Positions 12,343 to 61,073 of a DNA stretch of 64,000 nucleotides are shown here, piece after piece (the first letter of the stretch is position 1; each line of letters starts with the position of its first letter). Below the pieces are notes generated by a model, which saw nothing but the letters and a program-made list of their open reading frames with translations, was not told the origin of the DNA and made no database searches. Source of the stretch: a virus (Duplodnaviria > Caudoviricetes); IMG/VR virus record IMGVR_UViG_3300031760_000035, positions 10,959-74,958 of that record. One strand, 5' to 3'. A program made the translations under genes and the position numbers.

Positions 12343-14274
12343 TCAGCGTGGGAACGACCCCCCCCCCGAGCCAATTTCCGCGTTGCCGTTCGTGCTTGCC
12401 ATCACGAGGGGTTCGTCATCGTGGCGACGGTATGCGACCGCCTCTGGGCCAGACGCATCGACTGTGTGCGCGACCTCATCGGATATGCCGCATCCGTTGG
12501 CGCTCGTGTTCGCGGTTCGTATGGCTATCGCTGGCGAGTGCCAGTCTGCGGTCAACGTGTTGCAGGTGCCATCGTCGTACGTCGGCATGCTTCTCGCCGC
12601 AGCGCTCGCGCTGTACTTAAATGCGGTTATACCCCCCCTCGCAACCCTCGTCAGCGCCGTCTCTAGCTGCGGCGGCAAGCTCCTCCCTCTTCTTCTTGCT
12701 CGACGCAGGATGCCCGAACACGCCCTCGCGCTCAAATAGAACCGCTGAGGAACCCCCCCCGATCCAAGACATCCGACAAGAAAGACACGTCTGCGCCGCT
12801 GGGGAACTCCGAAGAACTGGCTGTCAAGCACTCGCCATGCCAGACCATACCCGAGTTCATCCAGCTCCGCGAGCAGGGTTCCAAAGGCTCGCCCCCTGTC
12901 TTGCGAGAGCACGCCTGGAACGTTTTCCCAGAGGAGCCACCGGGGTTCAATTTCACGAACAGCTCGTACGTACTCAAGCATGAGCTGACCTCGCGGATCC
13001 ATGAGTCCTCCGCGCTTTCCTGAGATGGAGAACGCTTGGCAGTTATGAACGGCAATTCCATCTGCTGTATATGAGTTGTCATCTTCGACCTCCAAGTTGT
13101 AGACGGTTGCCGTTCCTGATGGAGTGAACGACTGAACAATTCTCTTGACGTACCCGTTGTCAATCTGACAGCGACCGCCACTCTTGCCCAAGGTGACTTT
13201 GTACGATGGCTTGACCCGATACTCGACTCCCTTGATTACGGATGTGCCGCGCTCTGTGGGCTTAGCCACTGAACCGACTCTCGAAAGGAGCTGGATGCCG
13301 ATGGTCAACGCCTTGGATACGCTTTCAGCTGATGTGACGCCGCTCTCATACTTGTGTCCATCGGTTGCCATGTAGCCGCGAACGATTGCCTGCCGCTCGG
13401 CGTCAGACAGTGCAAGCGCCCAAGCGGGGATGTTCTTATTGGCTGCACCACGACCAAAGTGCCGTTCCAGAAAGCGGCACAACTCGGTGTTGTGGATTAC
13501 GACTCGGCATCTCGTGTCATCTATGCGCTCGACTCGATAGTTCATCTTCTGCTTGAATCGAGCTACAAAACCAACGAGCTTGCTAGGACAGATGGACAGC
13601 TCAAGCGTTCTCAGTGTTGGGTTTCTTCTGCCCTTGCCGGCTATCAAACCATCCCCGAGATACCAGCCGATTAGCTCGGCAATCTCGACGTTATCCAAGT
13701 CGTACACCTTTGGGTACTCAGGCACCAGACAATCAATGTCTGGGACCATACAGGCACAGAGTCCTACAGCGTCTTCCGCTGAGACGAACTTCTCACTCTC
13801 GAATCTGAACCAGCTACCGTCTTCGTTGGCCTTTCCCCTCTGCGTGCGCTTCGAGGTGAGGATCGGATGACTCGGCGTGCACTCAATGGGCATTACTCCG
13901 CATATCTTCAAAACGCCAACATCGGTAACTCTCGCTCCCGTGTCGAGCACCTTGCGGAGCCTGCCCTTGTGAGTCACAACCCGGTCCCCGACGCGTACCT
14001 GCTCAATGGGCTTGAACCCATCCTCGCAAAGGACTAGGGTACCCGCTGTGAAGCACGGCGTACCGCCAACGACCAAATCTACTCTACCCTTGTACGGTTT
14101 CCAATCGACGTTCGCTATGTCCCCAAGGTTGGGAACGTCTGGGTATCTGTGCGCAAGGACGGCGCTTGGGTAAGGCTCGACCTCCGCAAACGCAAGGGGC
14201 TCGAATCCAAGAACGTCCCATGCGACGCTTGCCGCCTCGATGCCAGAGCACAGTGACACGTACCTTATCGGCAC
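12343..14274 (-). CDS. C5-cytosine methyltransferase (motifs I-VIII) with intein and three poly-G tracts
   Basis: SLCSGI (I), GGTP/CQ (IV), WENVPGV (VI), PQRRRRVF (VIII); G8 at 12753-12760, G7 at 12632-12638, G10 at 12358-12367. Confidence 0.92.
   Translation of the reverse strand: MPIRYVSLCSGIEAASVAWDVLGFEPLAFAEVEPYPSAVLAHRYPDVPNLGDIANVDWKPYKGRVDLVVGGTPCFTAGTLVLCEDGFKPIEQVRVGDRVVTHKGRLRKVLDTGARVTDVGVLKICGVMPIECTPSHPILTSKRTQRGKANEDGSWFRFESEKFVSAEDAVGLCACMVPDIDCLVPEYPKVYDLDNVEIAELIGWYLGDGLIAGKGRRNPTLRTLELSICPSKLVGFVARFKQKMNYRVERIDDTRCRVVIHNTELCRFLERHFGRGAANKNIPAWALALSDAERQAIVRGYMATDGHKYESGVTSAESVSKALTIGIQLLSRVGSVAKPTERGTSVIKGVEYRVKPSYKVTLGKSGGRCQIDNGYVKRIVQSFTPSGTATVYNLEVEDDNSYTADGIAVHNCQAFSISGKRGGLMDPRGQLMLEYVRAVREIEPRWLLWENVPGVLSQDRGRAFGTLLAELDELGYGLAWRVLDSQFFGVPQRRRRVFLVGCLGSGGVPQRFYLSARACSGILRRARRRGRSLPPQLETALTRVARGGITAFKYSASAAARSMPTYDDGTCNTLTADWHSPAIAIRTANTSANGCGISDEVAHTVDASGPEAVAYRRHDDEPLVMASTNGNAEIGSGGGSFPR
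12732..13082 (-). CDS. Overlapping alternative-frame polypeptide (M.EcoHK31I beta-like), truncated at the G8 tract
   Basis: SD GGAGGT (13088-13093), ATG at 13082; reads SSGKTFQACS..WMNSGM..SEFPSGADVSFLSDVL and would continue VPQRFYLSARACSGILRRA if the tract were G9. Confidence 0.65.
   Translation of the reverse strand: MTTHIQQMELPFITAKRSPSQESAEDSWIREVSSCLSTYELFVKLNPGGSSGKTFQACSRKTGGEPLEPCSRSWMNSGMVWHGECLTASSSEFPSGADVSFLSDVLDRGGFLSGSI
13042..14055 (-). mobile_element. 338-aa intein with LAGLIDADG homing endonuclease
   Basis: Starts CFTAGTLV, ends YNLEVEDDNSYTADGIAVHN followed by Cys; LAGLIDADG-like IGWYLGDG and RGYMATDG. Confidence 0.95.
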
Positions 14275-15627
14275 CTACTCACCTCCCATGATGTCGAACA
14301 GCGTGAGCTGGGCATCACTGTCGCCGCCCTTCTCCGCGCTGTCGTTTGGCTTGTCCTCGTCATGCGGTAGCCTGCTCCGCATACGGCTGTCTGCTATCTC
14401 GCAGTAGTGGGAATCCATGTCTATGCCCACGAAGCGCATGCCCTCGTCCATGCAGGCAACGCCAGTGGAGCCACTTCCCATGAACGGGTCCATGACCACC
14501 CCCCCCTGCCTGCAAACGAGCTTCACGAGGTAGCGCATGAGCGCGTTGGGCTTGACGCACGGATGGTCGTTCTTCACGTCGCCGCAGTTGCGGTCCTTCT
14601 TGGACGCCTTCGCGCAGTAGAAGAAGCGCGCCGCACTGCCAGTGTCGCCATACCCAAGCTGATCTTGGTACTCATGGCCGTTGAACTTGCCATAGATGCC
14701 GTTCTTGCCAGGGGCCTTGACGCCGCCACCTCCACTTGACTTTCCAGTTGACGGGAACATGGCGACAACCTCGTCGCTACCGTCGTGGACGAGGTTTGCG
14801 GGGTAGCGTCCGAGCTGTTCGCTCTTCGCTATGTTCTCCTTCTTGCGCTCGACAAACGCGGCTTGCATGTCCGGATCGTCCATGAACGGACGCCGCCAAC
14901 CGTCCTGTGCGGACCCAGCCTTCATGCCGCCACCAAGGCTGTCGCTAGTGGGTATGCGGCATGCGTCGATGTTGATTGCGCCGGTGCCATACTTGCGCAC
15001 GTTGTTGACAACCGTGCCGCTCAGCGGCTTGTACGCCAGGATGATGGGTTCCCATGCGGGCTTTAGGTGCGTGTTCCACCCCTCCCACTCCCAAGCATCG
15101 TCTGGAAAGCCTTTCTCCATCATGCGTCGTACGTTCTGGCCGTGCGGCATACCGGAGCCGTAGACCCACATCATGCAGTCCTTGACAATCCAGCCTGCGT
15201 CCTCGATGGCGCACGCGATGCGGTGAAACGTCCTCGTCCCGCCAAAGCAGAGCATGTGGGCACCAGGCTTTGCGACGCGAATGGCCTCCTCGAAGATTGG
15301 GGTCATCTCCTCCTGGAATCGTCGCATCTCACCGACTGTCGGCGTCTTTCCATGGCTGTTGCCGAACTTCGGGACAGCGGCGTTGCTGTTGTCGTAGGCA
15401 CGGCCCTTCTCCATGCGCTCCGCCACGGACTCTGTGCCGTTCGGCTTCCCGAAGGTATCCCAGCTAGCGCCGCCAAAACCAAGAGCATATGGTGGGTCTG
15501 TAACAATGGCGTCCACGGAATCGCTTTCCATGGACGCCATCTCGCTCAGGCAGTCGCCGTTATGTATCGTGTATCGTTCGCTAATCTCGCTCGCCCCCGT
15601 CTCTTCTGTTCCACGCCAGCACGACAT
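14275..15627 (-). CDS. Amino (N4-C/N6-A) DNA methyltransferase, beta-class order; start uncertain
   Basis: DPPY precedes DPFMGSGSTG; in-frame G8 tract at 14499-14506. Confidence 0.9.
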   Translation of the reverse strand: MSCWRGTEETGASEISERYTIHNGDCLSEMASMESDSVDAIVTDPPYALGFGGASWDTFGKPNGTESVAERMEKGRAYDNSNAAVPKFGNSHGKTPTVGEMRRFQEEMTPIFEEAIRVAKPGAHMLCFGGTRTFHRIACAIEDAGWIVKDCMMWVYGSGMPHGQNVRRMMEKGFPDDAWEWEGWNTHLKPAWEPIILAYKPLSGTVVNNVRKYGTGAINIDACRIPTSDSLGGGMKAGSAQDGWRRPFMDDPDMQAAFVERKKENIAKSEQLGRYPANLVHDGSDEVVAMFPSTGKSSGGGGVKAPGKNGIYGKFNGHEYQDQLGYGDTGSAARFFYCAKASKKDRNCGDVKNDHPCVKPNALMRYLVKLVCRQGGVVMDPFMGSGSTGVACMDEGMRFVGIDMDSHYCEIADSRMRSRLPHDEDKPNDSAEKGGDSDAQLTLFDIMGGE

Positions 15628-15790
15628 GGTTCACTGCGGCCGGCAGCGTGCTTCTGTAGCACGACATGTCAGCCGGGCACCCATCGCCTGTGCAATAGAT
15701 CTGCGCGTAGTACTCGGCACCATCCCAACCGCATTCGAGCTTCGCGCTACTCCCACAGAAGGGGCAGTGCATCGGATCGTCCGCAGTCAT
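15581..15790 (-). CDS. Lar-like restriction-alleviation family Zn-finger protein
   Basis: CPFCG...CxxxxC...AWNRR. Confidence 0.7.
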   Translation of the reverse strand: MTADDPMHCPFCGSSAKLECGWDGAEYYAQIYCTGDGCPADMSCYRSTLPAAVNHVVLAWNRRDGGERD

Positions 15791-16464
15791 TGGAGGGCCT
15801 ATCGTTCTCGTCATCGTCACGCACTCCAACATCTTCAAATTGCGCCTGTTCAGGCTCGTAGTCCTTTACCCACTGCGTCGCCATCGCCTTGGCAATGCCG
15901 TGGAATGTCTTGCTGCGCAGCTTCGCCCTGTCATGTGGTGAAAGGCTCCATGCCTCGGCGTACCACGTCGGCATGGTGTTGCCGCTGGCATAGACCATGC
16001 GCGGCTCTGGCTCCACCACGTTCGTCGGTTGCAGCGGTGGCAACCCCTTTAGCCACAGGCAGGTCTTCTTCTCGTATGGGTCGCCGAACATCCAGGGCTG
16101 TATGATCTGGTCTGGCTTCCTGTACAGCCTGCTCATGATGCCGACAGGATTCTCGATTGCCACGCGTGGCACGTGGTCAAGGCACGTGAACGCCTTGAAG
16201 AATCCGATGCCCATGTCCTGCTGGCCGTTGCGGCGCTTTCGCTCGAACCACGCCGCACCGCTCACCGCCAGATGGGTGCATGGCGGAAACGCGATCACCA
16301 TGTCCCAGTCCATCTTCACGACCTCAAGCGCGTCTGCCTGTATGTGCCACTCAGGGTGCATGCCAGACGTGGGGAGAAGATCGCAAGAGAATGCAGTGTG
16401 CCCCCCCCCGACGCAATTCCGCAGTCACAGCCTGCGACTCCTCACATGCGCAAAGCACTCGCAT
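15747..16464 (-). CDS. C5-methyltransferase-like protein, frameshifted at a G9 tract
   Basis: MRVLCACEESQAV..R[G9]HTAFSCDL..FPPCTHL..AIENPVG; 718 nt, in frame only if the tract at 16401-16409 is G8. Confidence 0.8.
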
Positions 16465-16621
16465 CAAATCACCGTCCTTCGCTAATAGAAATGGCCCCAA
16501 TGGGCCACTTGATTTGCTTCTGCTCTTACCTGTCCTCGTTCATCGCGCCGCATCTGGGGCAGTAGTTCGGTGGCCCATTGAAGCCGCCCATCCTGTAAAA
16601 CCAGTCCCACACACAGCCGCA

Positions 16622-16740
16622 TTGACACTCCCCACGGCTAAATCATGGGGGATTCCTGCTTCGTCGAGAATGTACTCTCGTACAGGTCCAAAGTCCTCTC
16701 CACAGGCGTTGATTCCCGTGTGCCCCACGGTATGGCATAG
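16622..16740 (-). ncRNA. TnpB omega-RNA scaffold / IS200-IS605 right end
   Basis: ACCGTGGGGCACACGGGAATCAACGCCTGTGGAGA...GAAGCAGGAATCCCCC...GTGGGAGTGTCAA directly after the tnpB stop. Confidence 0.85.
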
Positions 16741-17880
16741 CTACATGGCGAGAAGTCTCTTGCCTTCTCTCGCTATATTCATAGCGGCATTGATGTCGCG
16801 GTCGTGGTGAGTTCCGCATTCTGGACATGTCCACTCGCGCATCGAGAGCGTGAGATCGTCGAAGACGCATCCGCAGTTTCCACAGGTCTTGCTGCTCGGG
16901 AACCATCGGTCGATCTTGACGAACGCCCTGCCGTACCAGTCGCACTTGTACTGAAGCTGTCGGAGTATCTCGGACATGCTCGCGTCACCGACCGCCTTTG
17001 CAAGGTGATGGTTCTTGACCATGCCCATCACGTTGAGGTCCTCGACGGCGATGGCTTGGCTCTCGCGCACCGCCTGCGTCGTCGCCTTGTGGATGGCGTC
17101 CCTGCGTTGATTGGTTACCTTCTCGTAGACAAGCGCGACCTTGCGCTTCTGCTTCTGCCAGTTGGCCGAGCCTTTCTTTCTACGGGAAAGCCTGCGCTGC
17201 TCGCGTCGGAGCTTCTTCTCGGCCCTTCGCAGAAACTTGTGATTCGGGACCTTTACTCCGTCCGAGCGGATCATCAGGTCCTTAACTCCTGCGTCGATGC
17301 CAAGCATCTCGTTCTCGCCCATCGGCATGTTCGGCTCGGGGACGTCGGTACAACAGATGATGACGTAGTACTTCCCGGACGGGACTCGCTTCACGGTGGC
17401 ATTGAGGATGCGGCCCTCTACAGGCTGCGTGATCTTGCACTTCACAACGCCAAGTTTTGGCAGCTTGACATGCGACCCATCAATCACCGTAACCTTGCAT
17501 CCAGCGGCAGGGTTACGATAGCTTTGTGTGCCATCTCGTCTTGACTTGAACTTTGGGAAACCTGGCTTTTCGCCGTTCTTCACGCGGCGGAAGAAGTTCT
17601 GATATGCCTTGTCAAGGTCTCTGATTGACTGCTGCAACGCCGAGTTGCTGACCTCGTACAACCATGGCGCGACCGTCTTCTTCCACACGGTAAGCTGTTT
17701 GCACAGATCGAACTGCGAGAGATTCTTCTTCTCGCACTCCCATGCGGCCTTCTTTGTCTCCAGTGACAGGTTGTAGACCCACCGACAAGCGCCGAAGGTC
17801 TTTTCGATTAATGCCACCTGCTCCTTGTTCGGATACAGGCGGCATCGATATGCTCTTTGTATCAATGTAAAAAACCTCAT
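16741..17880 (-). mobile_element. tnpB: RNA-guided endonuclease TnpB, non-autonomous (no tnpA)
   Basis: HTH AYRCRLYP; RuvC residues GIDAG, VEDL and DRDINAA all intact; Zn finger CGNC/CPEC. Confidence 0.95.
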
Positions 17881-17933
17881 AATATGGTGATGTGGCGGGT
17901 GAGGCATCCCGAGCGTGCGCGGAAGGCACACTT

Positions 17934-18092
17934 GTCTACCTGCGTACTTACGGGAACAGGCCGCAGTACTCATTCACTTTGCCTTGGCACACGCACTGGT
18001 TCCTGCTTCTGCGACACGTGACTAGAGCTTCCGAACGAAGCTCCCCCGCCAGAGGTGTCTCCACAGGCGTAACTTCCCACATGCCATGCGGT
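17934..18092 (-). ncRNA. Second omega-RNA-like scaffold upstream of tnpB
   Basis: ACCGCATGGCATGTGGGAAGTTACGCCTGTGGAGA...GAAGCAGGAA...GCAGGTAGAC parallels the downstream scaffold. Confidence 0.7.
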
Positions 18093-25376: not shown

Positions 25377-25774
25377 CAGTACCCCGCCTGCGGATTGGAG
25401 TACTCGCGCTGCAACTGGGAGTCAACGAGCTTGACTTGCAGCTTCGTGCTCATGATGGCCTCCAACGCGGCGCGCGTCATAGTCTCTGACACAAGCATCT
25501 TCTCGCGTGCCTCCGCCACTGGCGCGACTCCCTTGATGATCTGGGAGATGACCGTCGCTGGCATGCCCTGGTCTTTCAGCTCCAGGGTCTTAGCTGCCTT
25601 CGCGGTGTAGTATTCGCGGTCGCGCCTCGCATGCTCCGTGCCAAGCTCGCGGTACTCGTCTATGAACCTGTCGAGACGCGACCTAAGCTCGCGCTCTTCG
25701 AGGTAGAGGTCGTACTGTGGCGGCACGTCGCCGTCATAAGCCTCCGCTGGGAGGTAATCGTCGTACTGGTCCAT
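25376..25774 (-). CDS. Hypothetical helical protein
   Basis: 132-aa ORF coupled to its neighbours. Confidence 0.55.
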   Translation of the reverse strand: MDQYDDYLPAEAYDGDVPPQYDLYLEERELRSRLDRFIDEYRELGTEHARRDREYYTAKAAKTLELKDQGMPATVISQIIKGVAPVAEAREKMLVSETMTRAALEAIMSTKLQVKLVDSQLQREYSNPQAGY

Positions 25775-25790
25775 GGGCTGTCACCTCGCC

Positions 25791-26273
25791 CTATCCAGCA
25801 AGCTCAAGCGTCTGCTGCGTCCCGACCGTCTCCTCGATGGCCGCGAACACGTCGGACAGCTCGTTGAGCGCACGGTACTTTCGGACGAACGCCATAAGCT
25901 CGCGCTTCGCGCTGTCGAGCAACGCATCCCTGCTGTCGCTGCTCCTGAGCACCACGCCTATCGACCTGAACTCGCGGCTGTTATCCGACGCGACGGGAAC
26001 GAAGGCGCGAACGGGTTCACTGCTTCTCCCGACGCTCACCTCTATCGAGCGGATGATGTACGACGCCTGCCGCTCTCGGTACTTCTCTGCGGCAACGCTG
26101 TCATCCCACTCGAAGCACCCGTGCAGCGGCGCATCGTCCGGCCTGCTTGCGTTCACCAGGTTCGCTGGCGTCAATCCCCCGCTGGACTCAAGGCGCTCGC
26201 ACTCCTCGCCAGCGACCTGCGCGCTCACTGGGAGACGCGCGCCCGACTTGACCTTGTATATCACAACCACCAC
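25791..26273 (-). CDS. Hypothetical protein directly downstream of the pentamer array
   Basis: LTPANLVNASRPDDAPLHGCFEWDDSVAAEKYRERQASYII; SD GGAGGT upstream. Confidence 0.75.
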   Translation of the reverse strand: MVVVIYKVKSGARLPVSAQVAGEECERLESSGGLTPANLVNASRPDDAPLHGCFEWDDSVAAEKYRERQASYIIRSIEVSVGRSSEPVRAFVPVASDNSREFRSIGVVLRSSDSRDALLDSAKRELMAFVRKYRALNELSDVFAAIEETVGTQQTLELAG

Positions 26274-26288
26274 CTCCGAAAAGAATCG

Positions 26289-26312
26289 TGGGGCCGACGA
26301 GCGCCGACCCCA
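26289..26312 (-). terminator. Hairpin closing the array (TGGGGTCGGCG-CT-CGTCGGCCCCA, then CGATTCTTTT)
   Basis: GC-rich stem followed by a short T-run. Confidence 0.55.
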
Positions 26313-26320
26313 CCGACAAA

Positions 26321-26831
26321 GTGCCGCACGGTGACTTGCCTAGCCCCACAACGACTTGCGAGAACGTGCCTAGACTCGCCTGCCACGCCGTGCCAAATCA
26401 CGCCATACACTAGCTCGCCCAAACCAGCCGTGCCTGCCAAACCTTGCCTTGCCTTGCCACGCCCAACATCACCAAGCCTGAACTCGCCAAGCCTGCCGTG
26501 CCTCGCCTCACCAAACCGCGCGTCGCCGCGCCGTGCCAAGCCCCACCTAACCTGCCATGCCTCACCTAGCCAGAACTCGCCAAAACTAGCCAATCCCCGA
26601 CTCGCCACGCCTGCCTTGACTCGACGTGCCGTGACACGCCTAGACGTACCTGACCTATCCTCGCCTGCCGCACCAAGCCATACCACGTCCTGCCTAGCCG
26701 AGCCTAACCGCAACGAACCGCACCCTACCTGCCATGCCTCGCCTGACCTCGCCTTGCAGTACCGTGACAAGCCACACCTGCCAAGCCTCGCCTGGCCAGA
26801 ACCCGCCTTGACACGCCATTCCTTGCCTGCC
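26321..26831 (-). ncRNA. GGY-NN pentamer array: 95 pentamers in 9 units separated by GGCA (VIPR-like guide RNA array)
   Basis: Strict 5-nt register; by hand count 65/95 triplets are GGY and 82/95 are GKY; the dinucleotides are variable. Confidence 0.85.
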
Positions 26832-26848
26832 ACGTATGAATCGTTTGT

Positions 26849-27538
26849 CTAGCTGATCTTCAACTCAAACATGCCGTTCTGACCGTCCTTCTCGGGACGC
26901 CACTCTCCGATTCCGCAGCAGAAGCCGCCGAACCCGACCATGTTGAGAATCTGTTCGAGCGAGTACTTTCCGTCCTTGTTGTACTTGAGACGCAGGGGAA
27001 TCTCCCACTCCTTGAACTCGCCACGATAGCGGATGTCTGCCGACTTGCTCATTCCGCCGACGCGAACCATGTCCTCACGCATCTCTGGCACAGAGCCGAC
27101 GATCTCCGCCATATCAACGGTTGATGCGTCCGTGCCGCCCTCAAGGAAGAACGTGCCGCGAAGCTCAGTCTGCTTGACATCCAGTCCGGCTCGATATGCA
27201 CCAGAGATGATTGCCTGTTTGATGCCATTTACCGGAAATCCGAACTTTGCGCCAGCAGCGACGCAGTTGTTGAACGCGGCTTCCGCCTCCTCGTCACTGT
27301 TCCCGTCAAGCGGCTTGAGCGTGAGCCAGTACAGGCTGTTGATGAAGTCGTTGTATGGAATCTTTATGTCGTGCTTCGCGCCGACCTTCTTTCCGCGCTG
27401 CTTGTCCAGCATCATCTGCTTTGCCTTGTCGCTCCAAGCGTGGACGATGAGCGGTGTCGTGCCGACGATGGCGATGTCCACTGTCTCGATGTTGATGGGC
27501 TTGATTTCAATGGTCTTGACGCTCTTTGCAGTTGCCAT
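26849..27538 (-). CDS. RAMP/Cas7-like protein (Vipr-like)
   Basis: N-terminal IVGTTPLIVH, 'IRYRGEFKEW', and C-terminal Gly-rich loop GFGGFCCGIGEWRPEKDGQNGMF; immediately upstream of the array. Confidence 0.75.
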   Translation of the reverse strand: MATAKSVKTIEIKPINIETVDIAIVGTTPLIVHAWSDKAKQMMLDKQRGKKVGAKHDIKIPYNDFINSLYWLTLKPLDGNSDEEAEAAFNNCVAAGAKFGFPVNGIKQAIISGAYRAGLDVKQTELRGTFFLEGGTDASTVDMAEIVGSVPEMREDMVRVGGMSKSADIRYRGEFKEWEIPLRLKYNKDGKYSLEQILNMVGFGGFCCGIGEWRPEKDGQNGMFELKIS

Positions 27539-27599
27539 GATGTATAATCTCCTTTGGTGAGGAAGCGGCTCGGGCGTGGTGACCCAAGCCGCTTTGCTT

Positions 27600-28316
27600 T
27601 TACTCTGCGCCCTTCGGACGCCATTCCTTCATCTGGTACAGCGACCAGTCAACCTGGTCCAATGCGCTCTGCTGCTGCGGTGCCTCGTTGAGGTAGGACT
27701 CGAAGTGCGACGGCCTGAAAAGCGTCTCTGGCCGAAGGTACTTCTCCTGCTCGGTTCCGAGCCACTGGGAAACCTTCACGTCTATGACGTGCTTGAAGTC
27801 ATCGAGCGTGTAGCCGTCAAGGAACCTCGCACGAATCATCCTGCGCGTGGCCTCCGTGCCTACTCTGTAGTGCTTGCCGGACTTCTCGTTTAGGTAGGCG
27901 ATCACATCCCCGTAGGGCACATCCGCATCGTCGGGCTTGCCCGACAAAGTAGTTCTTTCTTTACTAGCAACCTTATCTAGTATTCTTTCTTGCTGATTTG
28001 AGGAGTCTGCTTCGTCATTCTGGCAAGTCTGCCTTGCCGATTTAGCAAGGCAGCTATGCAACGTCCTTGTTCTGCCGTCGAACGACGCAATGCTGATGTA
28101 GCCGAGACTCTTTAGCTTGGTTATCGACCTTGACACCGTGGACTCGCCACACTGGCAGAAGTCTGCGAGGTACTTGTTACTTGCGTAGCAACCCCTCTCG
28201 CCGTCAAGGCTGTCAATCTCTAGTAGAATCATCTTCTCTATCGCATTGAGCCGCATGTCAAGCCAGACGCTTGCTGGAAACCAGACGCCCTTGAACTCGC
28301 GTTTGTCTTTTCCCAT
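27600..28316 (-). CDS. Phage replication initiator (winged HTH plus conserved phage C-terminal domain)
   Basis: YASNKYLADFCQCGESTVSRSITKL; YLNEKSGK..KYLRPETLF..FESYLN. Confidence 0.85.
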   Translation of the reverse strand: MGKDKREFKGVWFPASVWLDMRLNAIEKMILLEIDSLDGERGCYASNKYLADFCQCGESTVSRSITKLKSLGYISIASFDGRTRTLHSCLAKSARQTCQNDEADSSNQQERILDKVASKERTTLSGKPDDADVPYGDVIAYLNEKSGKHYRVGTEATRRMIRARFLDGYTLDDFKHVIDVKVSQWLGTEQEKYLRPETLFRPSHFESYLNEAPQQQSALDQVDWSLYQMKEWRPKGAE

Positions 28317-28771
28317 CACGCATCGCCGCGCACGATGCAATCGATAATCGGTTGTACATCACTTGCATCGACGTACACGATGCCGTTCATCGTCCTTGTC
28401 TCTATGCCGAGCAAACGAATCGCGTTCTTGACGTTGCGTAGGGTGATGTACGGGAACCCTCGCGATGTGTCAATGACTTCGCTGAGCGCCCTCTTGACCC
28501 TGGGGAGCGACACGCTCTCGACGTTGTTCGGCTGCTTGTTGTACATCGGCATGTACTTCCAGATGTACTTATTCTCAAGCATGTCGAGATCGTCTACTGA
28601 ACACGGCATGGCGTAAGCCTCGTCATGCTCCTTGTCGGTATGGCTCGCAATACGCGACACGCCAACCCTTGTTTGGCCCACATATACGACCTCGCCGTGA
28701 TTGAGAAGGAAGTAGATGAGACACCTGTTGCGCTCATCTACTTTAATGCAGTCACTCTCCTCGAACTTCAC
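28316..28771 (-). CDS. GIY-YIG-like nuclease domain protein
   Basis: IYFLLNHGEVVYVGQT..RIASH..LENKYI. Confidence 0.6.
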   Translation of the reverse strand: MKFEESDCIKVDERNRCLIYFLLNHGEVVYVGQTRVGVSRIASHTDKEHDEAYAMPCSVDDLDMLENKYIWKYMPMYNKQPNNVESVSLPRVKRALSEVIDTSRGFPYITLRNVKNAIRLLGIETRTMNGIVYVDASDVQPIIDCIVRGDA

Positions 28772-34713: not shown

Positions 34714-35874
34714 ATGGCTAAGAGGCGACTGAGGGACGAGTGGGGTTCGATCACCGAGGTCAACCGCAACGAGAGGTACCGCATCCGCTATTGGGGCAAT
34801 GATGAGAACGGCACCTATCGGCGCATGACCTGCACCGTCCGTGGTACGCGACGGGACGCGGAGCGCAAGCGGGCCGAACTGATGCTCGAACACAGTGAGG
34901 AGGCGCAATGCGTCACCGTCGATTACGTCTGGAAGCACTGGTACCTTCCGACTCTTGAGCGGCGCTGCAAAGACGGCGAGATGTCCGACAAGACCGTGAG
35001 CCAGTACAAGAGCCGCTACAGCTCCGCAATATCCGAGAGGTGGGGGCAGGTGCCGTGTGACGGAATCAGGCCACTTGACGTGCAGCAGTGGCTCGACGGC
35101 ATCAGCTACACCAAGGCGAGCCAGTCGCTCAACATGCTCAGGCCGATGCTCGACTACGCCGTTAGATATGGCGAGATACCGTCCAACCCGTTCAGGGAGC
35201 GCTACCTGCTGCCATCGAAGTCAACGGTCAAGCACATGGACGATGGCGCATGGAAGCTCGGCGAACTGAACCAATTGTGGGAGCGTGTGCGCGGCGAGTG
35301 GTTCGAGGGTGCCTTTATCTGCGCGGCGTTTGGCGGGTGCCGTGTTGGCGAGTCGATTGGCATCCAGGTAGGCGACATAAAGCGCCTTGACGCTGACGGC
35401 CTGTGTGTTGCGGTTGTCAGGGTCGAGCGACAGGTGAAGAACGCCGGTGGCGTTTCCGAGCAGTTGAAGAACCCGCAAAGCAGGAGGCCAATCGTCATTG
35501 TCGGCAGACCAGCGGAACGACTCTGTGAGATTGCCAAGAGCGCACCGATCTGGGTTACTGGCGACGGATTCGGCGGGCCAACGACGCAGTTGAGGCTCGG
35601 AACATCATGGAAGAAGATGGCAGACCGACTGCCAGATGGGATGTGGCACCCGTTCAGGAACCTCAGAAACAGCTACCAGACGTTCATGCGCTGGGAGGTC
35701 GGCCTTGCGCCGCATTACATCGAGGAGCTGCTTGGTCACAGGGGAACGACGGTCACCGACAAGCACTATGACAGGCCGGACGAGAGCGCCATCGTTGGCG
35801 TCACCGTGGCGGCATGGGAGGCATACCTAAAGGCTTCACGAGCGCAAGAAAAGGCACCCTTCGGTGCACGTTAG
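34714..35874 (+). CDS. int: Tyrosine integrase
   Basis: GCRVGE, HPFRNLRNSY, LLGH, TDKHY; N-terminal arm-binding-like domain. Confidence 0.93.
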   Translation: MAKRRLRDEWGSITEVNRNERYRIRYWGNDENGTYRRMTCTVRGTRRDAERKRAELMLEHSEEAQCVTVDYVWKHWYLPTLERRCKDGEMSDKTVSQYKSRYSSAISERWGQVPCDGIRPLDVQQWLDGISYTKASQSLNMLRPMLDYAVRYGEIPSNPFRERYLLPSKSTVKHMDDGAWKLGELNQLWERVRGEWFEGAFICAAFGGCRVGESIGIQVGDIKRLDADGLCVAVVRVERQVKNAGGVSEQLKNPQSRRPIVIVGRPAERLCEIAKSAPIWVTGDGFGGPTTQLRLGTSWKKMADRLPDGMWHPFRNLRNSYQTFMRWEVGLAPHYIEELLGHRGTTVTDKHYDRPDESAIVGVTVAAWEAYLKASRAQEKAPFGAR

Positions 35875-57203: not shown

Positions 57204-58595
57204 TTAGGCACCAACCTTCTTCTTGAGCAGCGCCCAGCCGTACGGGTTGACAACGCGACCGTCAAGGGCGGTGAGCACCTTGGTCTTCTTGGCGTTGTTC
57301 TCGTGGTCATCCCAGGACACGACGGACATGGGCATGCCGGGCTGGGTGTTGATGGTGTACTTCTTGAGGTCGCCGAAGATGCCGAAGATGTCGCCGTCAT
57401 CAGCGTCATCGAAGCTCGGGAGCAGGGTGTCCTCGACAAGGTTGACGGGACGGTTGCGCAGGCGCAGTGGCTCGTCATCGTTGAGCGGGTCGGACTTGTA
57501 GAGCGGCTGGTTGTTATCGTCGCGGAGCAGGTCGATGTGCATGCCCCAAGTGGAGTCGCCGAAGACCCACTCGCCACGGCCACGGTACAGGCGGTTGAAG
57601 CCACCGTAGAGGACGGTGCGCCAGAAGCGCCAATCGTCAACCTGGTCAGCGGTGACCTCGATGATGGTGGCGTTGCCCTTGATGTAGCCGGACTGGCCCT
57701 CGGTGCCCTGACCCTTGAGGCGCGGGTCAACGAGGATGCCGAGCGGCTGGGTGGAGCCGTTGCCGCGCAGGATGGCGGACTCCTTGGCGTTCATGAAGCC
57801 CTCGGCGAGAGCGGGGGCGAGCAGCGCCTTGAAGTTGTCGCGCATGAGGGCGTCGGCCAGCATGGTGCGGGCGAAGCGGGCCTCAAGCTGGTGCCACACG
57901 AACGAGAACGTGGTGCCGTCAGGCTGCTCCTGATAGTCGGAAACCTCGGTGTCGCCGATCCACGAGTAGGTGATTTGCAGGTCGGCCTCGGTGTAGGTCA
58001 GGCCACCCTGGACGTGGACCTCGTTGACCTTGTTGCCGATGTTGCCGTACTCGCGCTCCTCGCGAATGATCTCCTCGTTGAGGGAGTTCGGGATGGCGAC
58101 GTTGGTGGAGAAGGTGTTGGCGAAGTCAGCGACCTCGTTGTAGTCACCGTGGATGCTGATGTTCTGGTTGCGCTCCTGACGGGCCTTGGCGATCATCTCG
58201 GCAGGCATCGGGGCGTGGCGCAGGATGTGCTGCGCGAGGGCGCGACGGTACTCAGCGGAATCGGTGTAGGCCCAAGAGGTCACGTCGCGGACGGTGTGAA
58301 TCTTGGAGCGCTTCTGCTGCGGCTCGGGCTTGGCCTCGGGTTCGTTGGTGGCAACGACGCGGGCAGCGCCGGACTCGACGGCAGCGAGCTTGGTGTTGCG
58401 AAGCTCGGTGGCGGCGTTGCGGCGGTTGGCCTCGGCGAGGATCATGTCGCGCTCGGCGTACAGGGAATCCTCGTCAACGCCCTCGGGCAGCTCGTCAGCG
58501 GTCAGAAGCTCGATAATCTGGTTGCGGCGAGCCTCGAAGGCGTCGGCGTCCAGGGCGCGATACTGGGTCGCGTCGTAAGGGATGAACTCGTCCAT
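57204..58595 (-). CDS. Major capsid protein (HK97 fold)
   Basis: 463 aa, N-terminal delta-like helix, ILRGNGSTQPLGIL, LDGRVVNP. Confidence 0.9.
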   Translation of the reverse strand: MDEFIPYDATQYRALDADAFEARRNQIIELLTADELPEGVDEDSLYAERDMILAEANRRNAATELRNTKLAAVESGAARVVATNEPEAKPEPQQKRSKIHTVRDVTSWAYTDSAEYRRALAQHILRHAPMPAEMIAKARQERNQNISIHGDYNEVADFANTFSTNVAIPNSLNEEIIREEREYGNIGNKVNEVHVQGGLTYTEADLQITYSWIGDTEVSDYQEQPDGTTFSFVWHQLEARFARTMLADALMRDNFKALLAPALAEGFMNAKESAILRGNGSTQPLGILVDPRLKGQGTEGQSGYIKGNATIIEVTADQVDDWRFWRTVLYGGFNRLYRGRGEWVFGDSTWGMHIDLLRDDNNQPLYKSDPLNDDEPLRLRNRPVNLVEDTLLPSFDDADDGDIFGIFGDLKKYTINTQPGMPMSVVSWDDHENNAKKTKVLTALDGRVVNPYGWALLKKKVGA

Positions 58596-58629
58596 GAGTC
58601 CGCTCCTTCCTTTTCGGTTGTAGCTTTGG

Positions 58630-59268
58630 TTAGCGGAGCCTGATAAGCTCCAACGCAGCAGCGGCCTTGGCCCTCTTTGCCTTGGCTGCTTCTAGCTCTG
58701 CACGTTGCAGCGCCTCCCGCTGCGTACGCCTCTCCTCGATCACTCCGTCAAGGTAGGAACGTGCATGTATCTCAGTGTTCGGGTTAGCGGGTATTCCCAC
58801 GGCGCTAACGTCGAACAGCTTAGATATGGCCGTGATGCGGGACGTTCTGGTTTCCTCGTCCCACTCCATGCCGTCGCTGGCGATGATGAAGCCGAAGCTC
58901 ATCTGGTCAACGAGTCCGTTGGTAATCGACTCGTAGAGGTCGCGACCACGCTGCGAACCGCCAAGGTACGCCTCGCACATGCCGCCGTGGTCATCGAACG
59001 AGATGGACAGCGAGCCGTTCTTGCTGCGTGCCATAACGTCGCCCTCGTGGTCGTACTGGAAGATGATGTCGCTGAGGTCGCACCCAGCGAAGGCGTCCCT
59101 CCCGATGACCTCGTAGATGGGCTTGCCGTCCCAGTCCTCCATGAGCCAGTAGGGCTGCTCGAACGTGGTGAAGTATCCGCGCACGGTGTAGGGCTTGGAC
59201 TCGTCCTCGACCCGCTGGAAGTTCACGGCGTCAAAGCTGCGATACTCACGATTGTTCTTGACGGGCAT
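58630..59268 (-). CDS. HK97-family prohead protease
   Basis: VRGYFTTF, FQYDH, MSFGF, DVSAVGIPANP. Confidence 0.92.
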   Translation of the reverse strand: MPVKNNREYRSFDAVNFQRVEDESKPYTVRGYFTTFEQPYWLMEDWDGKPIYEVIGRDAFAGCDLSDIIFQYDHEGDVMARSKNGSLSISFDDHGGMCEAYLGGSQRGRDLYESITNGLVDQMSFGFIIASDGMEWDEETRTSRITAISKLFDVSAVGIPANPNTEIHARSYLDGVIEERRTQREALQRAELEAAKAKRAKAAAALELIRLR

Positions 59269-59313
59269 CTCAGCTCCCCTCATATGAAGAAGGCCCCTTG
59301 CGGGGCCTCTTGT

Positions 59314-60597
59314 CTATTCGTCAACGGTCAGGTCGCCATGCCCGTCCGTGTCGTTGTATTCCTGCTCGTCGCCGCCGAGGTCGAAGTCCGACTCCTTGAC
59401 CGAGCCTGTGAGCCTGCTGCCCTGAACGACGCCGCCCATTAGGCTCTGAGCGCCGTTAGCGGCCTTGTACTCGCCGCGTGCGATGAGCACGTCGCCACCC
59501 TCGACGGGCGGCAGTTGCAGAATCTCGCGGCCCTCGTTGATGGTCATGATCCCTCGGTCGATCATGTCGCGGACCATGTTGCGCTTGGATGCGTTGGTCG
59601 CGTATTCGAGCTTGGACGAGCTGAACATCACGTAGTTGCCGTGCTTGCGCTCCACCGGCGTGAAGTTGCATTTGGTTATGGCCTCGGAGAGCATGACGGC
59701 GAAAGGCTCGACCTTGCCCTCGTACCACGCGCCGTAGTGCTCCTCGTCGTAGCTGTTCTGTAGGATGTCCTCGTTGATGCCGAAGTAGTCGTACACCTGG
59801 GAGGCCACGCGCTCCATCTCGCCCTCTTCGATGATGTAGCGCGACTCGTCAACCTGCTTGATGTCTTGGAAGGTGTTGTCGTAGACCATGATGCCCGTGT
59901 AGTTTCGGGCGCTCAGGTTGTCGATGTAGAACTGCTCGCGCTTCTTGTTGAGATCGTCGCCGTGGGTCATGCCCGTGATGCGACCGATGAAGCGGATGCG
60001 AGCGCCGTTCTTTACCGCCTGCTCCTCTGCCTGCCTCTGGGAGTCCATGAGCGCGAGGACGGGGTTCATTATGTTGTTGCCAGCACCGAAGAAGTCGGAC
60101 ATGTACTGGAACTTGGTGACTACGGCGCAGCGCGAGAACTCGATAGCCATAACGTCGCCCGTGACCATGTGGAAGATGCACCAAGGCTCGCCCTGGTACT
60201 CCGCTATCTCGGTATAAAGCGGCTTCACGGGGAACAGCGCTACGGTCTTGAGGTCCCTGTCGAGTCCAGGCACGATGAAGAGCGTGGTGTCCATCTCGTA
60301 GATGGTTGCCGCCCTCGCGAGGAAGGCGGGCCACGTCATCAGGTCGTTGGGCCATGTCTCGATCAGCTTCCGCACGTTCGGCTTGCACGTGTCGCTGCCC
60401 ACGAACTCCGGCTTTAGCTTCGAGCACGCCACCGCGAACCGCTCGATGGCCGCGCGGGTCAACGGGTGGTCATACAAAGATCCGTCCCACGTGGCAAACG
60501 TCGGGGCGGATTCAGTGAACGTGGTATATGAGTCGTGGAGGTAGGGCCGCTGCTGATGCTGCTGAACCTGCGGGAAATATTTAGACAATACTCCCAT
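59314..60597 (-). CDS. Portal protein (HK97 family)
   Basis: AIERFAVACSKL, WPNDLMT, GIMTINEGREILQLPPVEGGD. Confidence 0.92.
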   Translation of the reverse strand: MGVLSKYFPQVQQHQQRPYLHDSYTTFTESAPTFATWDGSLYDHPLTRAAIERFAVACSKLKPEFVGSDTCKPNVRKLIETWPNDLMTWPAFLARAATIYEMDTTLFIVPGLDRDLKTVALFPVKPLYTEIAEYQGEPWCIFHMVTGDVMAIEFSRCAVVTKFQYMSDFFGAGNNIMNPVLALMDSQRQAEEQAVKNGARIRFIGRITGMTHGDDLNKKREQFYIDNLSARNYTGIMVYDNTFQDIKQVDESRYIIEEGEMERVASQVYDYFGINEDILQNSYDEEHYGAWYEGKVEPFAVMLSEAITKCNFTPVERKHGNYVMFSSSKLEYATNASKRNMVRDMIDRGIMTINEGREILQLPPVEGGDVLIARGEYKAANGAQSLMGGVVQGSRLTGSVKESDFDLGGDEQEYNDTDGHGDLTVDE

Positions 60598-60604
60598 GGC
60601 ACAT

Positions 60605-60660
60605 ACTATATATTGTATGTGCCCATTTGTCAAGTGTCATTCAGACACAATATGTTGTGT
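60605..60660 (-). promoter_or_regulatory. Sigma70-type promoter TTGACA-17-TATAGT with upstream operator ACACAACATATTGTGT
   Basis: -35 at 60628-60633, -10 at 60605-60610, portal ATG 7 nt downstream, operator at 60645-60660. Confidence 0.75.
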
Positions 60661-61014
60661 TTCGCACAGAAGTTTGGGTGGCACGCGGATTTGTGTGGAA
60701 GAACAGTCGTTCGGTGAGCGGTACCATCAAAACTGCTACAATCTACCCATCAGCTATCTAACAAGGAAGTCTGTCTGGGCGAACCTGAGAGTCCTTCAAT
60801 AGTAACTCAGGGGTTCAAGTCCAACTCACTAGTCAATGCACCTCTACCTTTGCTTTAACTCTTGTTGACTAGATACATTCTCTTTCTTGCTTCTTCTTTC
60901 TCTTAAACGCCCCGTGAACGACTGGGGAAACTGCCAACATTTCAACATCGGGCCTGCGAAAACTCGTAGAAACCGCAGGTCACAAGGACATTGTTGAAAA
61001 GCATAACAACTCGG

Positions 61015-61050
61015 CAAAAAAGAGGGGAGCCTTGCAGAAACGGCTCCCCT
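61015..61050 (-). terminator. Intrinsic terminator after terL
   Basis: AGGGGAGCC...GGCTCCCCT followed by CTTTTTT. Confidence 0.7.
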
Positions 61051-61073
61051 TCGTTCGTCGCTGTAGTAAGGGC

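What the first reader, a model, noticed from the sequence alone, without database searches (positions are those of the whole stretch)
26321..26831. GGY-NN pentamer array with nine guide-like units: candidate non-contiguous RNA-guide (VIPR-like) system
Seen: 18 nt after the stop of the RAMP-like gene, the minus strand runs in exact 5-nt register for 511 nt. There are 95 pentamers of a near-constant triplet (65 GGY, 17 GTY) plus a free dinucleotide, broken by a GGCA tetramer into 9 units of 9-12 pentamers, then closed by a hairpin and T-run. Dinucleotide strings: U1 AA.AT.GT.AA.GG.CT.CA.GA.TT; U2 GT.TT.AC.AC.AA.GA.CA.GA.AT; U3 AG.GC.TC.GC.TA.TC.TA.AG.GT.AT.TT.GC; U4 GA.TA.CA.AC.TA.GT.AC.AC.GA.AA; U5 GT.GA.GG.TT.TA.TT.GA.CT.TA.GA.AT; U6 TA.GG.TT.AC.GC.GA.GC.TT.GA.GA.AC; U7 TT.GA.CA.TT.GA.TG.GT.AA.AA.AA.TT; U8 AC.TG.TG.GA.AG.AT.GT.TT.AC.GT; U9 GA.TA.AC.CT.AA.GT.GG.TA.AA.AC.GC.AC. 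Each unit holds 18-24 variable bases, which is spacer-like information. Five-nt periodicity does not fit codon structure but does fit one protein subunit per repeat, as in Cas7 filaments. From memory (not verified here), the recently reported VIPR phage systems have this layout and read the NN pairs as a gapped DNA target. Inference: nine guides aimed at competing phages or host loci. My spot checks found no self-target.
Basis: partly seen in the sequence, partly recalled or inferred. Interest (0 to 1): 0.95.

Follow-up and report, generated by a model that had tools for sequence, protein, structure and literature searches.

The report
Phage VIPR guide-RNA array, staggered type
A temperate bovine-gut phage carries a genuine VIPR system (a lone Cas7-like protein, nine guide RNAs written in a five-base code, and a small partner gene), a kind first published in 2026; one guide spells the capsid gene of a rival prophage, so this is a well-supported new example of a known system, not a new kind.

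Summary
On the minus strand, 26831-26321 parses as nine units of GGCA plus 9-12 pentamers: 95 pentamers, 65 GGY-NN and 17 GTY-NN. Its register score is 152; the rest of the window reaches 8 and shuffles reach 14.

The reading as VIPR-like is supported. The upstream 229-aa protein matches only the solved SUSP1 Vipr in the PDB (profile E 8e-6). It folds as a Cas7/Csm3 RAMP (Z 10.6) and keeps the GGY-binding residues.

In 114 related loci across several phyla, a same-strand pentamer array follows the gene. It is almost always punctuated by GGCA. In 106 of them a conserved 157-aa gene follows, a vap candidate.

NN content is unique to each locus, and strain variants differ almost only at NN positions. 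There is no self-target.

Guide U9, read with the published 1-nt-skip rule, matches 20/20 bases over its first ten NN pairs. The match lies at wobble-phased codons of a major-head gene of a prophage-like element, found in 35 of 201 Atopobiaceae genomes. Targets of the other eight guides were not found.

The GGCA "staggered" layout is mentioned, but not experimentally confirmed, in the VIPR preprint. Expression and processing could not be tested. This scan has already met the same array type in at least 39 other genomes. Verdict: new member of a known kind.

The parts
26849..27538 (-). vipr gene: 229-aa minimal RAMP (Cas7-like) protein
   Evidence: No Pfam family; matches phrog_4652 of unknown function. 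The only PDB sequence match is 36pp 'SUSP1 Vipr protein': E 4e-4 for the single sequence and 8e-6 for the profile over 132 residues. The AF2 model has pLDDT 85. Foldseek's top matches are Csm3/Cas7 at E 1e-5. VIA-align gives Z 10.6 with 155 residues aligned, and all top 50 rows are Cas7-family RAMPs. R172, E212, W213 and R214 align to SUSP1 R138, D177, W178 and R179 and are invariant in 31 homologues.
26832..26848 (-). 17-nt leader between the vipr stop codon and the first GGCA
   Evidence: Read directly from the sequence.
26321..26831 (-). vrRNA array: nine GGCA-delimited units of GGY-NN pentamers ('staggered' layout)
   Evidence: Pentamer blocks: U1 26827-26783, U2 26778-26734, U3 26729-26670, U4 26665-26616, U5 26611-26557, U6 26552-26498, U7 26493-26439, U8 26434-26385, U9 26380-26321. 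Each block is preceded by a GGCA tetramer. No Rfam family matches. Predicted folding energy is no different from shuffles.
26331..26380 (-). Guide U9, NN pairs 1-10 (GA.TA.AC.CT.AA.GT.GG.TA.AA.AC): the only guide with an identified natural target
   Evidence: Read with a 1-nt skip, it matches 20/20 specified bases in two metagenome contigs (L150 311-339, L151 505-533). Both sites are at codons D-Y-T-L-N-V-G-Y-K-T of a phrog_422 major-head homologue. It matches 20/22 at 49 sites in 35 of 201 Atopobiaceae genomes, with 0 hits for the reversed-pattern control. Skips of 0, 2 and 3 give nothing.
26278..26313 (-). Terminator-like hairpin (11 pairs, 8 G-C) followed by a T-rich run, closing the array
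   Evidence: sequence.
25791..26264 (-). vap candidate: conserved 157-aa accessory gene (GGAGG ribosome-binding site, then GTG start at 26264; the longest ORF starts at 26273)
   Evidence: Present on the same strand, just after the array, in 106 of 114 vipr loci; the other neighbouring genes are not conserved. Matches phrog_15946 and no Pfam family. The AF2 model has pLDDT 89. Residues 1-108 give only modest matches to winged-helix domains, Z 5-6, and Foldseek against the PDB finds nothing significant.

Best explanation
This is a VIPR (Viral Interference Programmable Repeat) locus of a temperate tailed phage of bovine-gut Coriobacteriia, probably Atopobiaceae. It consists of vipr (26849-27538), a nine-guide vrRNA array (26831-26321), a terminator-like hairpin, and a conserved vap-like gene (25791-26264).

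Inferred mechanism, by homology with the solved SUSP1 system. The array is transcribed with vipr from the early replication/recombination operon. One Vipr protomer binds each pentamer, holds G-G-Y and displays the two N bases. The filament reads double-stranded DNA as NNxNNx, skipping one target base per pentamer, and blocks transcription.

The 4-nt GGCA (GGC plus one base instead of two) breaks the 5-nt register. It delimits nine guides of 9-12 NN pairs, in place of the about 40-nt pseudoknot tail of type II vrRNAs.

At least guide U9 is aimed at codons 55-64 of the major-head gene of a different prophage-like element common in Atopobiaceae. The system therefore most likely silences competitors resident in the same host.

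Shown here: anatomy, homology, family-wide conservation, variability confined to NN, absence of self-targets, and one code-obeying natural target. Inferred: expression, cleavage or filament break at GGCA, DNA binding and repression, and the role of the vap-like protein.
For: - **Protein.** The only PDB sequence hit is SUSP1 Vipr. The fold is a Cas7/Csm3 RAMP at Z 10.6 over the full length. The residues that contact GGY in SUSP1 (R138, D177, W178, R179; paper .720927) align to the invariant R172, E212, W213 and R214.
- **Array.** The parse is exact and far above chance.
- **Family.** All but a few of the 80 IMG/VR loci and 34 genome loci with a Vipr homologue (29-82% identity; Actinomycetota, Bacillota, Alphaproteobacteria, Bacteroidota, Planctomycetota) carry a same-strand pentamer array right after the gene. 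GGCA is the dominant slip, and units are mostly 9-14 pentamers.
- **Accessory gene.** The 157-aa gene follows the array in 106 of 114 loci.
- **NN variability.** None of the nine guides is shared with any guide of the 114 related loci. In a near-identical strain (run X2), 6 of 7 substitutions inside the array fall on N4/N5, and the seventh is a pyrimidine-to-pyrimidine change at Y3.
- **No self-target.** The best match in the 75-kb record is 17/24.
- **Target of U9.** 20/22 in two of the first three host-family genomes searched. My estimate of the chance expectation there is about 0.003, assuming equal base frequencies. The same site occurs at 49 places in 35 of 201 genomes, against 0 for the control. 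There are 20/20 matches over NN1-10 in two metagenome contigs, at the same codons of the same gene family. The skipped bases are the wobble positions. The gene is a phrog_422 major head protein next to a scaffold gene. The phage's own head gene belongs to a different family, phrog_10.
- **Sister system.** A 12-NN guide of L004 matches 22/24, in codon phase, inside the vipr genes of L002, L003 and L083.
- **Skip rule across the family.** 27 guides have at least 85% NN match at skip 1, against 10-15 at skips 0, 2 and 3 and 5-14 in shuffles.
Against: - No RNA data exist, so transcription, guide boundaries and Vipr loading are untested.
- Eight of the nine guides have no target above chance in what was searched.
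- U9 mismatches every target found at its 11th NN pair.
- 13 of 95 pentamers lack G-G/T-Y, so some units may be impaired.
- Similarity to the experimentally studied Vipr is remote: 28 bits, with only the C-terminal half aligned with confidence. The H17-to-H33 alignment rests on a non-significant segment.
- The winged-helix call for the vap candidate is weak (Z 5-6).
- The staggered architecture has not been validated experimentally in the source paper, which confirmed only the hammerhead and single-guide layouts by sRNA-seq.
Confidence: 0.9

Rival explanations
1. The stretch is protein-coding: a Gly/Arg-rich repeat protein read from the stop-free frames 26261-26833 (minus strand, 190 aa) or 25773-26852 (plus strand, 359 aa).
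For: Both frames are open across the array.
Against: A 5-nt period with 4-nt slips cannot keep a codon phase. Only 15 of 94 related arrays have a stop-free sense frame, and 25 of 94 an antisense one. Array lengths are spread evenly modulo 3 (34/32/28). What is conserved across relatives is G-G-Y and GGCA, while the NN bases are free. The open frames here follow from the G-rich, stop-poor composition.
Confidence: 0.01
2. The stretch is a structural DNA or RNA repeat unrelated to guidance, for example a G-quadruplex-forming tract (GG every 5 nt) or iterons of the replication origin next to the initiator gene 27600-28340.
For: GG-N3 spacing could in principle form two-tier G-quadruplexes. The array lies 0.8 kb from a replication-initiator gene.
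Against: Across 114 loci the array travels with vipr and the 157-aa gene, not with the initiator, which is shared by only 2 loci. Iterons repeat one sequence, whereas here 190 variable bases are unique. One unit spells a foreign capsid gene in codon phase. Variation between strains falls on NN.
Confidence: 0.02
3. It is a real VIPR locus but a decaying or partly inert one. The array is a relic whose units no longer match anything, and the U9 match is historical.
For: 13 of 95 pentamers are degenerate, most of them in U8-U9. Eight guides have no target. U9 mismatches at its 3' end.
Against: vipr and the vap-like gene are intact and under conservation. Near-identical strains from a 2024 study keep the array and change NN bases while preserving Y3. 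Internal degeneracy of vrRNAs is described as frequent in functional systems (paper methods). The target databases for bovine-gut phages are thin and were searched mostly for exact matches only.
Confidence: 0.07

Closest known systems
VIPR systems with 'staggered' vrRNA arrays (bioRxiv 10.64898/2026.04.26.720920, Results and fig. S18 legend)
   Same: The Vipr RAMP is followed by a continuous GGY/NN tract in which successive guides abut with a 1-nt register overlap. The GGCA here can be read as a pentamer GGCAG sharing its last G with the next pentamer. The system is phage-borne and has an accessory gene.
   Different: Only the legend of that figure could be read, so identity of layout is inferred from its wording. 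The paper did not confirm this architecture by sRNA-seq. This locus adds a concrete separator consensus (GGCA, with CGCA, GGCG or AACA in some clades), a unit-length distribution and a natural target. The VIPR type (I-VII) could not be assigned with the tools at hand.
Type II VIPR of Escherichia phage SUSP1 (PDB 36pp; bioRxiv .720920, .720927, 10.64898/2026.10.15.759431)
   Same: The protein family is the same, as are the GGY-contact residues, the 9-16 pentamers per guide, the 1-nt-skip wobble-phased targets in coding DNA of competing elements, and the absence of self-targeting.
   Different: Sequence similarity is remote. There is no 40-nt pseudoknot tail after each guide. Here nine guides run head to tail, separated by 4 nt, with one terminal hairpin. 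The accessory protein has no detectable sequence match to a named family. The target is a prophage capsid gene, not a tail-less satellite or a regulator.
Class 1 CRISPR-Cas effector backbones (Cas7/Csm3 filaments on crRNA)
   Same: The RAMP fold is shared (Z about 10 to Csm3), with one subunit per fixed RNA increment and a thumb that flips bases periodically.
   Different: There is no CRISPR repeat-spacer array and there are no cas1/cas2 or other cas genes near the locus. The increment is 5 nt, with 3 bases sequestered and 2 read. Guides are hard-wired, not acquired.

Membership tests
VIPR | A Vipr protein: a minimal single-RRM RAMP with G-loop and thumb, homologous to published Vipr proteins | tested here: met
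   The only PDB sequence hit is SUSP1 Vipr (E 8e-6 with the profile). Csm3/Cas7 is the top fold at Z 10.6. The G-loop motif G-x-G-E-W-R-P at 209-215 is invariant.
VIPR | Residues that bind G1, G2 and Y3 of the repeat (SUSP1 H17, R138, D177, W178, R179) | tested here: met
   R172, E212, W213 and R214 align in the significant segment and are invariant in 31 homologues. D177 is replaced conservatively by E. The H17-to-H33 alignment lies in a non-significant segment, so that one residue is only plausible.
VIPR | vrRNA made of tandem GGY/NN (YNNGG) pentamers, about 9-16 per guide, with GGY conserved and NN hypervariable | tested here: met
   Nine units of 9-12 pentamers. The family-wide logo keeps G, G and Y while NN stays free. 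No guide is shared between loci. Strain substitutions fall on NN.
VIPR | A minimal locus outside CRISPR-Cas: vipr plus an accessory vap gene, with no CRISPR array or cas genes | tested here: met
   The neighbours are RecE, RecT, a replication initiator and small phage ORFs. The conserved 157-aa gene follows the array in 106 of 114 loci. Which of vap1-6 it corresponds to could not be determined.
VIPR | Viral or proviral carrier | tested here: met
   The source is a 75-kb virus record with terminase, portal, major head and integrase genes.
VIPR | Targets follow the 1-nt-skip rule (NNxNNx), mostly in coding DNA with the skip at the wobble position | tested here: met
   For U9: 20/20 over ten NN pairs and 20/22 at 49 sites, all in codon phase in a major-head gene, with none at skips 0, 2 or 3. 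A sister guide matches 22/24 in rival vipr genes. This is in silico only, and the other eight guides are unresolved.
VIPR | No self-targeting at 80% NN match or above | tested here: met
   The best match in the whole record is 17/24 (71%).
VIPR | vrRNAs are expressed as discrete small RNAs and co-purify with Vipr | not testable with these tools
   No RNA run holds the locus.
VIPR type II (SUSP1 / P. fulva clade) | Each guide is followed by a conserved tail of about 40 nt with a pseudoknot | tested here: not met
   Guides are separated by 4 nt only. A single hairpin follows the last unit. The array is not more structured than shuffles. It is therefore not filed as type II.
CRISPR-Cas | A repeat-spacer array with direct repeats of 23-50 nt, plus adaptation genes cas1/cas2 | tested here: not met
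   The only periodicity is 5 nt. No cas family appears among the ten flanking ORFs.

The most novel reading that the evidence does not exclude
The GGCA tetramer may be a new kind of guide punctuation that replaces the structured tail. A single missing base would break the Vipr filament register. Either Vipr itself (a Cas7/Csm3 relative) or a host RNase would then cut there, or the uncut transcript would carry nine independent filaments as a multivalent 'beads-on-a-string' silencer. In either case guide maturation would need no dedicated Cas6-like enzyme and no RNA structure.
Probability: 0.3. Interest if true: 0.6.

Novelty: new member of a known kind. Interest (0 to 1): 0.4.

Why it matters
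VIPR was described only in 2026, and experiments cover the E. coli and Pseudomonas type II systems. This locus is a clean example of the tail-less, GGCA-punctuated layout in a gut Actinomycetota phage.

- The same grammar is conserved across at least five phyla.
- A strain comparison shows change confined to the coding NN bases.
- There is a concrete natural target: the major-head gene of a prophage-like element present in about one in six sampled Atopobiaceae genomes.

Together these give a ready test case for how staggered arrays are matured, and for whether capsid-gene silencing is used in phage-phage competition in the rumen and gut.

It does not change the picture of what VIPR is.

Tried and rejected
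**Searches for targets that found nothing**
- Exact 1-nt-skip patterns in IMG/VR for U3, U4, U5, U6, U7, U8 and U9 (ten NN pairs): 0 hits each.
- U9 with 11 NN pairs, exact, in metagenome contigs: 0 hits.
- U1-U8 with 2-3 mismatches in three host-family genomes: nothing above chance. One U2 hit at 16/18 is at chance level.
- U6 in 121 Atopobiaceae genomes and U3 in 101: one 19/22 hit at chance level, and none.
- The nine guides read as degenerate peptides against 120 Vipr homologues: no match. These guides do not target vipr genes.
- 419 kb around ten U9 target sites: no other guide hits the same element.
- An 18/20 hit of an L083 guide in L143 lies in DNA with stops in all frames and is taken as chance.

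**RNA evidence**
- No RNA holder is listed for the locus.
- Rfam finds no family in 25700-27700.

**Tools and records that were not available**
- The metagenome records behind L150 and L151 are not held, so the rest of those target contigs could not be read.

**Other**
- vap candidate: no Pfam or PDB sequence match and no significant Foldseek PDB match.
- The VIPR type (I-VII) could not be assigned, because the paper's figures and data tables are not held.
- Complex prediction was not used, because no protein-protein binding is claimed.

Full report
**1. The observation**

The minus strand from 26831 to 26321 was read and parsed in two ways. The other was a dynamic programme that knows only 'G-G/T-Y scores, a 4-nt step costs'. 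Both give the same nine units: GGCA followed by 9, 9, 12, 10, 11, 11, 11, 10 and 12 pentamers.

The register score is 151.9. The best score anywhere else in the window on either strand is 8.2. In 200 shuffles of the array's own composition the maximum is 13.8. No second array exists in the 75-kb record.

A hairpin of 11 pairs and a T-rich run follow. The gap after the stop codon is 17 nt. The final GGCAC is probably a closing GGCA, as in many relatives.

**2. What is known**

VIPR is a published system. It has a minimal RAMP protein (Vipr) and vrRNAs of 9-16 GGY/NN pentamers. Double-stranded DNA is recognised with one target base skipped per pentamer. Targets lie in competing phages and satellites. 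There are seven types and several array layouts, including 'staggered arrays with overlapping vrRNAs' whose units overlap by 1 nt (bioRxiv 10.64898/2026.04.26.720920).

Cryo-EM shows one protomer per repeat. G1 and G2 are held by H17, D177, R138 and W178, and Y3 by R179 and neighbouring residues (bioRxiv .720927). The staggered layout was not among those confirmed by sRNA-seq.

**3. The protein**

The 229-aa product of 26849-27538 has no Pfam family and matches only phrog_4652, of unknown function. Against all PDB sequences its only match is chain 36pp_D, 'SUSP1 Vipr protein'. The E-value is 4e-4 alone and 8e-6 with a 31-member profile over 132 residues.

The AlphaFold model (pLDDT 85) matches Csm3/Cas7 RAMPs first by Foldseek (E 1e-5). 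By VIA-align the match is Z 10.6 with 155 residues aligned, and all top 50 rows are Cas7-family.

SUSP1 R138, D177, W178 and R179 align to R172, E212, W213 and R214, all invariant in the family. H33 is a plausible counterpart of H17, but that segment of the alignment is not significant. More than 6000 clusters of homologues exist in metagenomes.

**4. The family**

I fetched 80 IMG/VR loci and 34 loci from cellular genomes that encode a homologue at 29-82% identity. All but a few have a pentamer array on the same strand immediately after the gene. Some also have one upstream.

The register slip is GGCA in the large majority of cases. An unbiased slip scan and the DP parse (431 of about 540 slips) agree on this. 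Units between slips are mostly 9-14 pentamers. The layout recurs in Atopobiaceae, Eggerthellaceae, Oscillospiraceae, Sphingomonas, Nocardia and Bacteroidota. Separators are CGCA in a Planctomycetota locus and GGCG in a Rhizobium locus.

The only other conserved neighbour is the 157-aa gene that follows the array here (25791-26264). It is present, co-oriented and downstream, in 106 of 114 loci. RecE, RecT and the replication initiator are shared by 2-4 loci. The conserved module is therefore vipr, then the array, then this gene, which fits the published 'vipr plus vap' pair.

Its model (pLDDT 89) resembles winged-helix domains only modestly, at Z 5-6 over residues 1-108. Foldseek finds nothing significant in the PDB.

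**5. Non-coding and hypervariable**

Only 15 of 94 related arrays keep a stop-free sense frame, and array lengths are evenly spread modulo 3. The two long ORFs across the array in this window are therefore artefacts of composition. The array RNA is not more structured than shuffles, and no Rfam family matches.

None of the nine NN strings recurs in any of the related loci. Contigs from a 2024 bovine-gut study carry a 95-99% identical phage. In one of these runs (X2), 7 substitutions fall inside the array. Six are at N4/N5, and one is a pyrimidine-to-pyrimidine change at Y3.

Across 462 units, N4 is purine-rich and C-poor and N5 is A/T-rich. This resembles codon positions 1 and 2. It fits guides copied from sense strands, although avoidance of G-C self-pairing could also contribute.

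**6. Targets**

No site in the phage's own 75 kb matches better than 17/24 at any skip.

The closest cellular copies of the protein are in Atopobiaceae and Eggerthellaceae MAGs from sheep and goat gut. Searching those three genomes with each guide as NNxNNx gave hits only for U9, at 20/22 in two genomes. I estimate the chance expectation at about 0.003, assuming equal base frequencies.

The same site is present at 49 places in 35 of 201 Atopobiaceae genomes. The reversed-pattern control gave none. It always covers the codons D-Y-T-R-N-V-G-Y-K-T-G, with the skipped bases at wobble positions. The gene is a phrog_422 major head gene beside a scaffold gene, and is followed by adaptor and tail-fibre genes.

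All of these copies differ from the guide at NN4 (CG for CT) and at NN11. A metagenome scan for the exact first ten NN pairs then found two contigs. Both hits are at the same codons of homologues of the same gene, which here encode Leu (D-Y-T-L-N...). That is a 20/20 match.

Skips of 0, 2 and 3 give nothing. The phage's own head gene belongs to another family, phrog_10, and has no similarity to the target.

In a sister locus, a 12-NN guide of L004 matches 22/24, in codon phase, inside the vipr genes of L002, L003 and L083. The October 2026 preprint reports the same behaviour for SUSP1 relatives.

Over 479 guides and 1.3 Mb of local sequence, 27 guides reach at least 85% NN match at skip 1. This compares with 10-15 at the other skips and 5-14 in shuffles.

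Targets for the other eight guides were not found, but most of those searches could only find exact matches.

**7. How it most likely works**

By homology, one Vipr protomer sits on each pentamer and the NN pairs read DNA with a 1-nt skip. The complex would block transcription of the rival's late operon near the start of its capsid gene.

GGCA supplies GGC plus one base where two are expected. The next GG then comes one base early, so the filament cannot continue in register. I infer that this is the guide delimiter, as a cut site or as a filament break. It would take the place of the pseudoknot tail of type II.

GGY is stricter in the first two and last two pentamers of units, which fits filament nucleation or capping at unit ends.

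None of this is shown for this locus. No RNA data exist.

**8. Comparison and verdict**

All testable defining features of VIPR are met. The type II tail feature is not met, so the locus is not filed as type II. The type number cannot be assigned from the text that is held.

The layout corresponds to the 'staggered' arrays of the preprint's fig. S18 legend. This scan has already met the same array type in at least 39 other genomes, and their follow-up reports reached the same class. I did not use those reports as evidence.

Its added value is a defined natural target and strain-level evidence of NN-only change.

Noticed in passing
L141+L142, L143+L144, L145+L146, L137+L138, L147+L148, L118, L150 (target loci in Atopobiaceae genomes and a metagenome contig): The targeted major-head gene is intact (339 aa) in some genomes. 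In at least seven places it is cut off or frameshifted after 69-184 codons, and each fragment still keeps the U9 target site. This may be ordinary prophage decay, or retention of the 5' part for another reason.
   Followed up: partly
L002/L003 3611-3895, L020 3623-3936, L021 3630-3935, L058 3691-3873, L016 1134-1275, L029 3592-3853, L083 3-164: Some relatives carry a second GGCA-punctuated array upstream of vipr as well as the downstream one. The window's locus has only the downstream array.
   Followed up: no
L110 (Planctomycetota MAG), L113 (Rhizobium MAG), L037/L039: The 4-nt separator differs by clade: CGCA, GGCG and AACA instead of GGCA. This suggests co-variation of the delimiter with the Vipr lineage.
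   Followed up: no
L105 2421-4713 (Nocardia sp. genome): There are very large pentamer tracts, about 45 units in all, on both sides of the vipr homologue in a cellular Nocardia contig. My parser bridged them across the gene, so the exact boundaries need rechecking.
   Followed up: no
window 26361-26367 (U9 pentamers 3-4) in run X2: A near-identical strain changes U9 NN3 from AC to GT and NN4 from CT to CG. CG is the base pair seen at that codon in all 49 Atopobiaceae target copies. Guides may track target alleles by point mutation.
   Followed up: partly
window 25773-26852 (+) and 26261-26833 (-): These long stop-free ORFs (359 and 190 aa) across the array are composition artefacts. Gene callers may annotate them as hypothetical proteins.
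   Followed up: yes
window 12343-17973: Two large DNA methyltransferase genes (12343-14274 and 14275-15627) and a transposase of the phrog_506 family (16741-17973; earlier first-reader notes call it TnpB) lie downstream in the same phage. An integrase is at 34714-35874, and terminase, portal and major head genes are at 57204-62804.
   Followed up: partly
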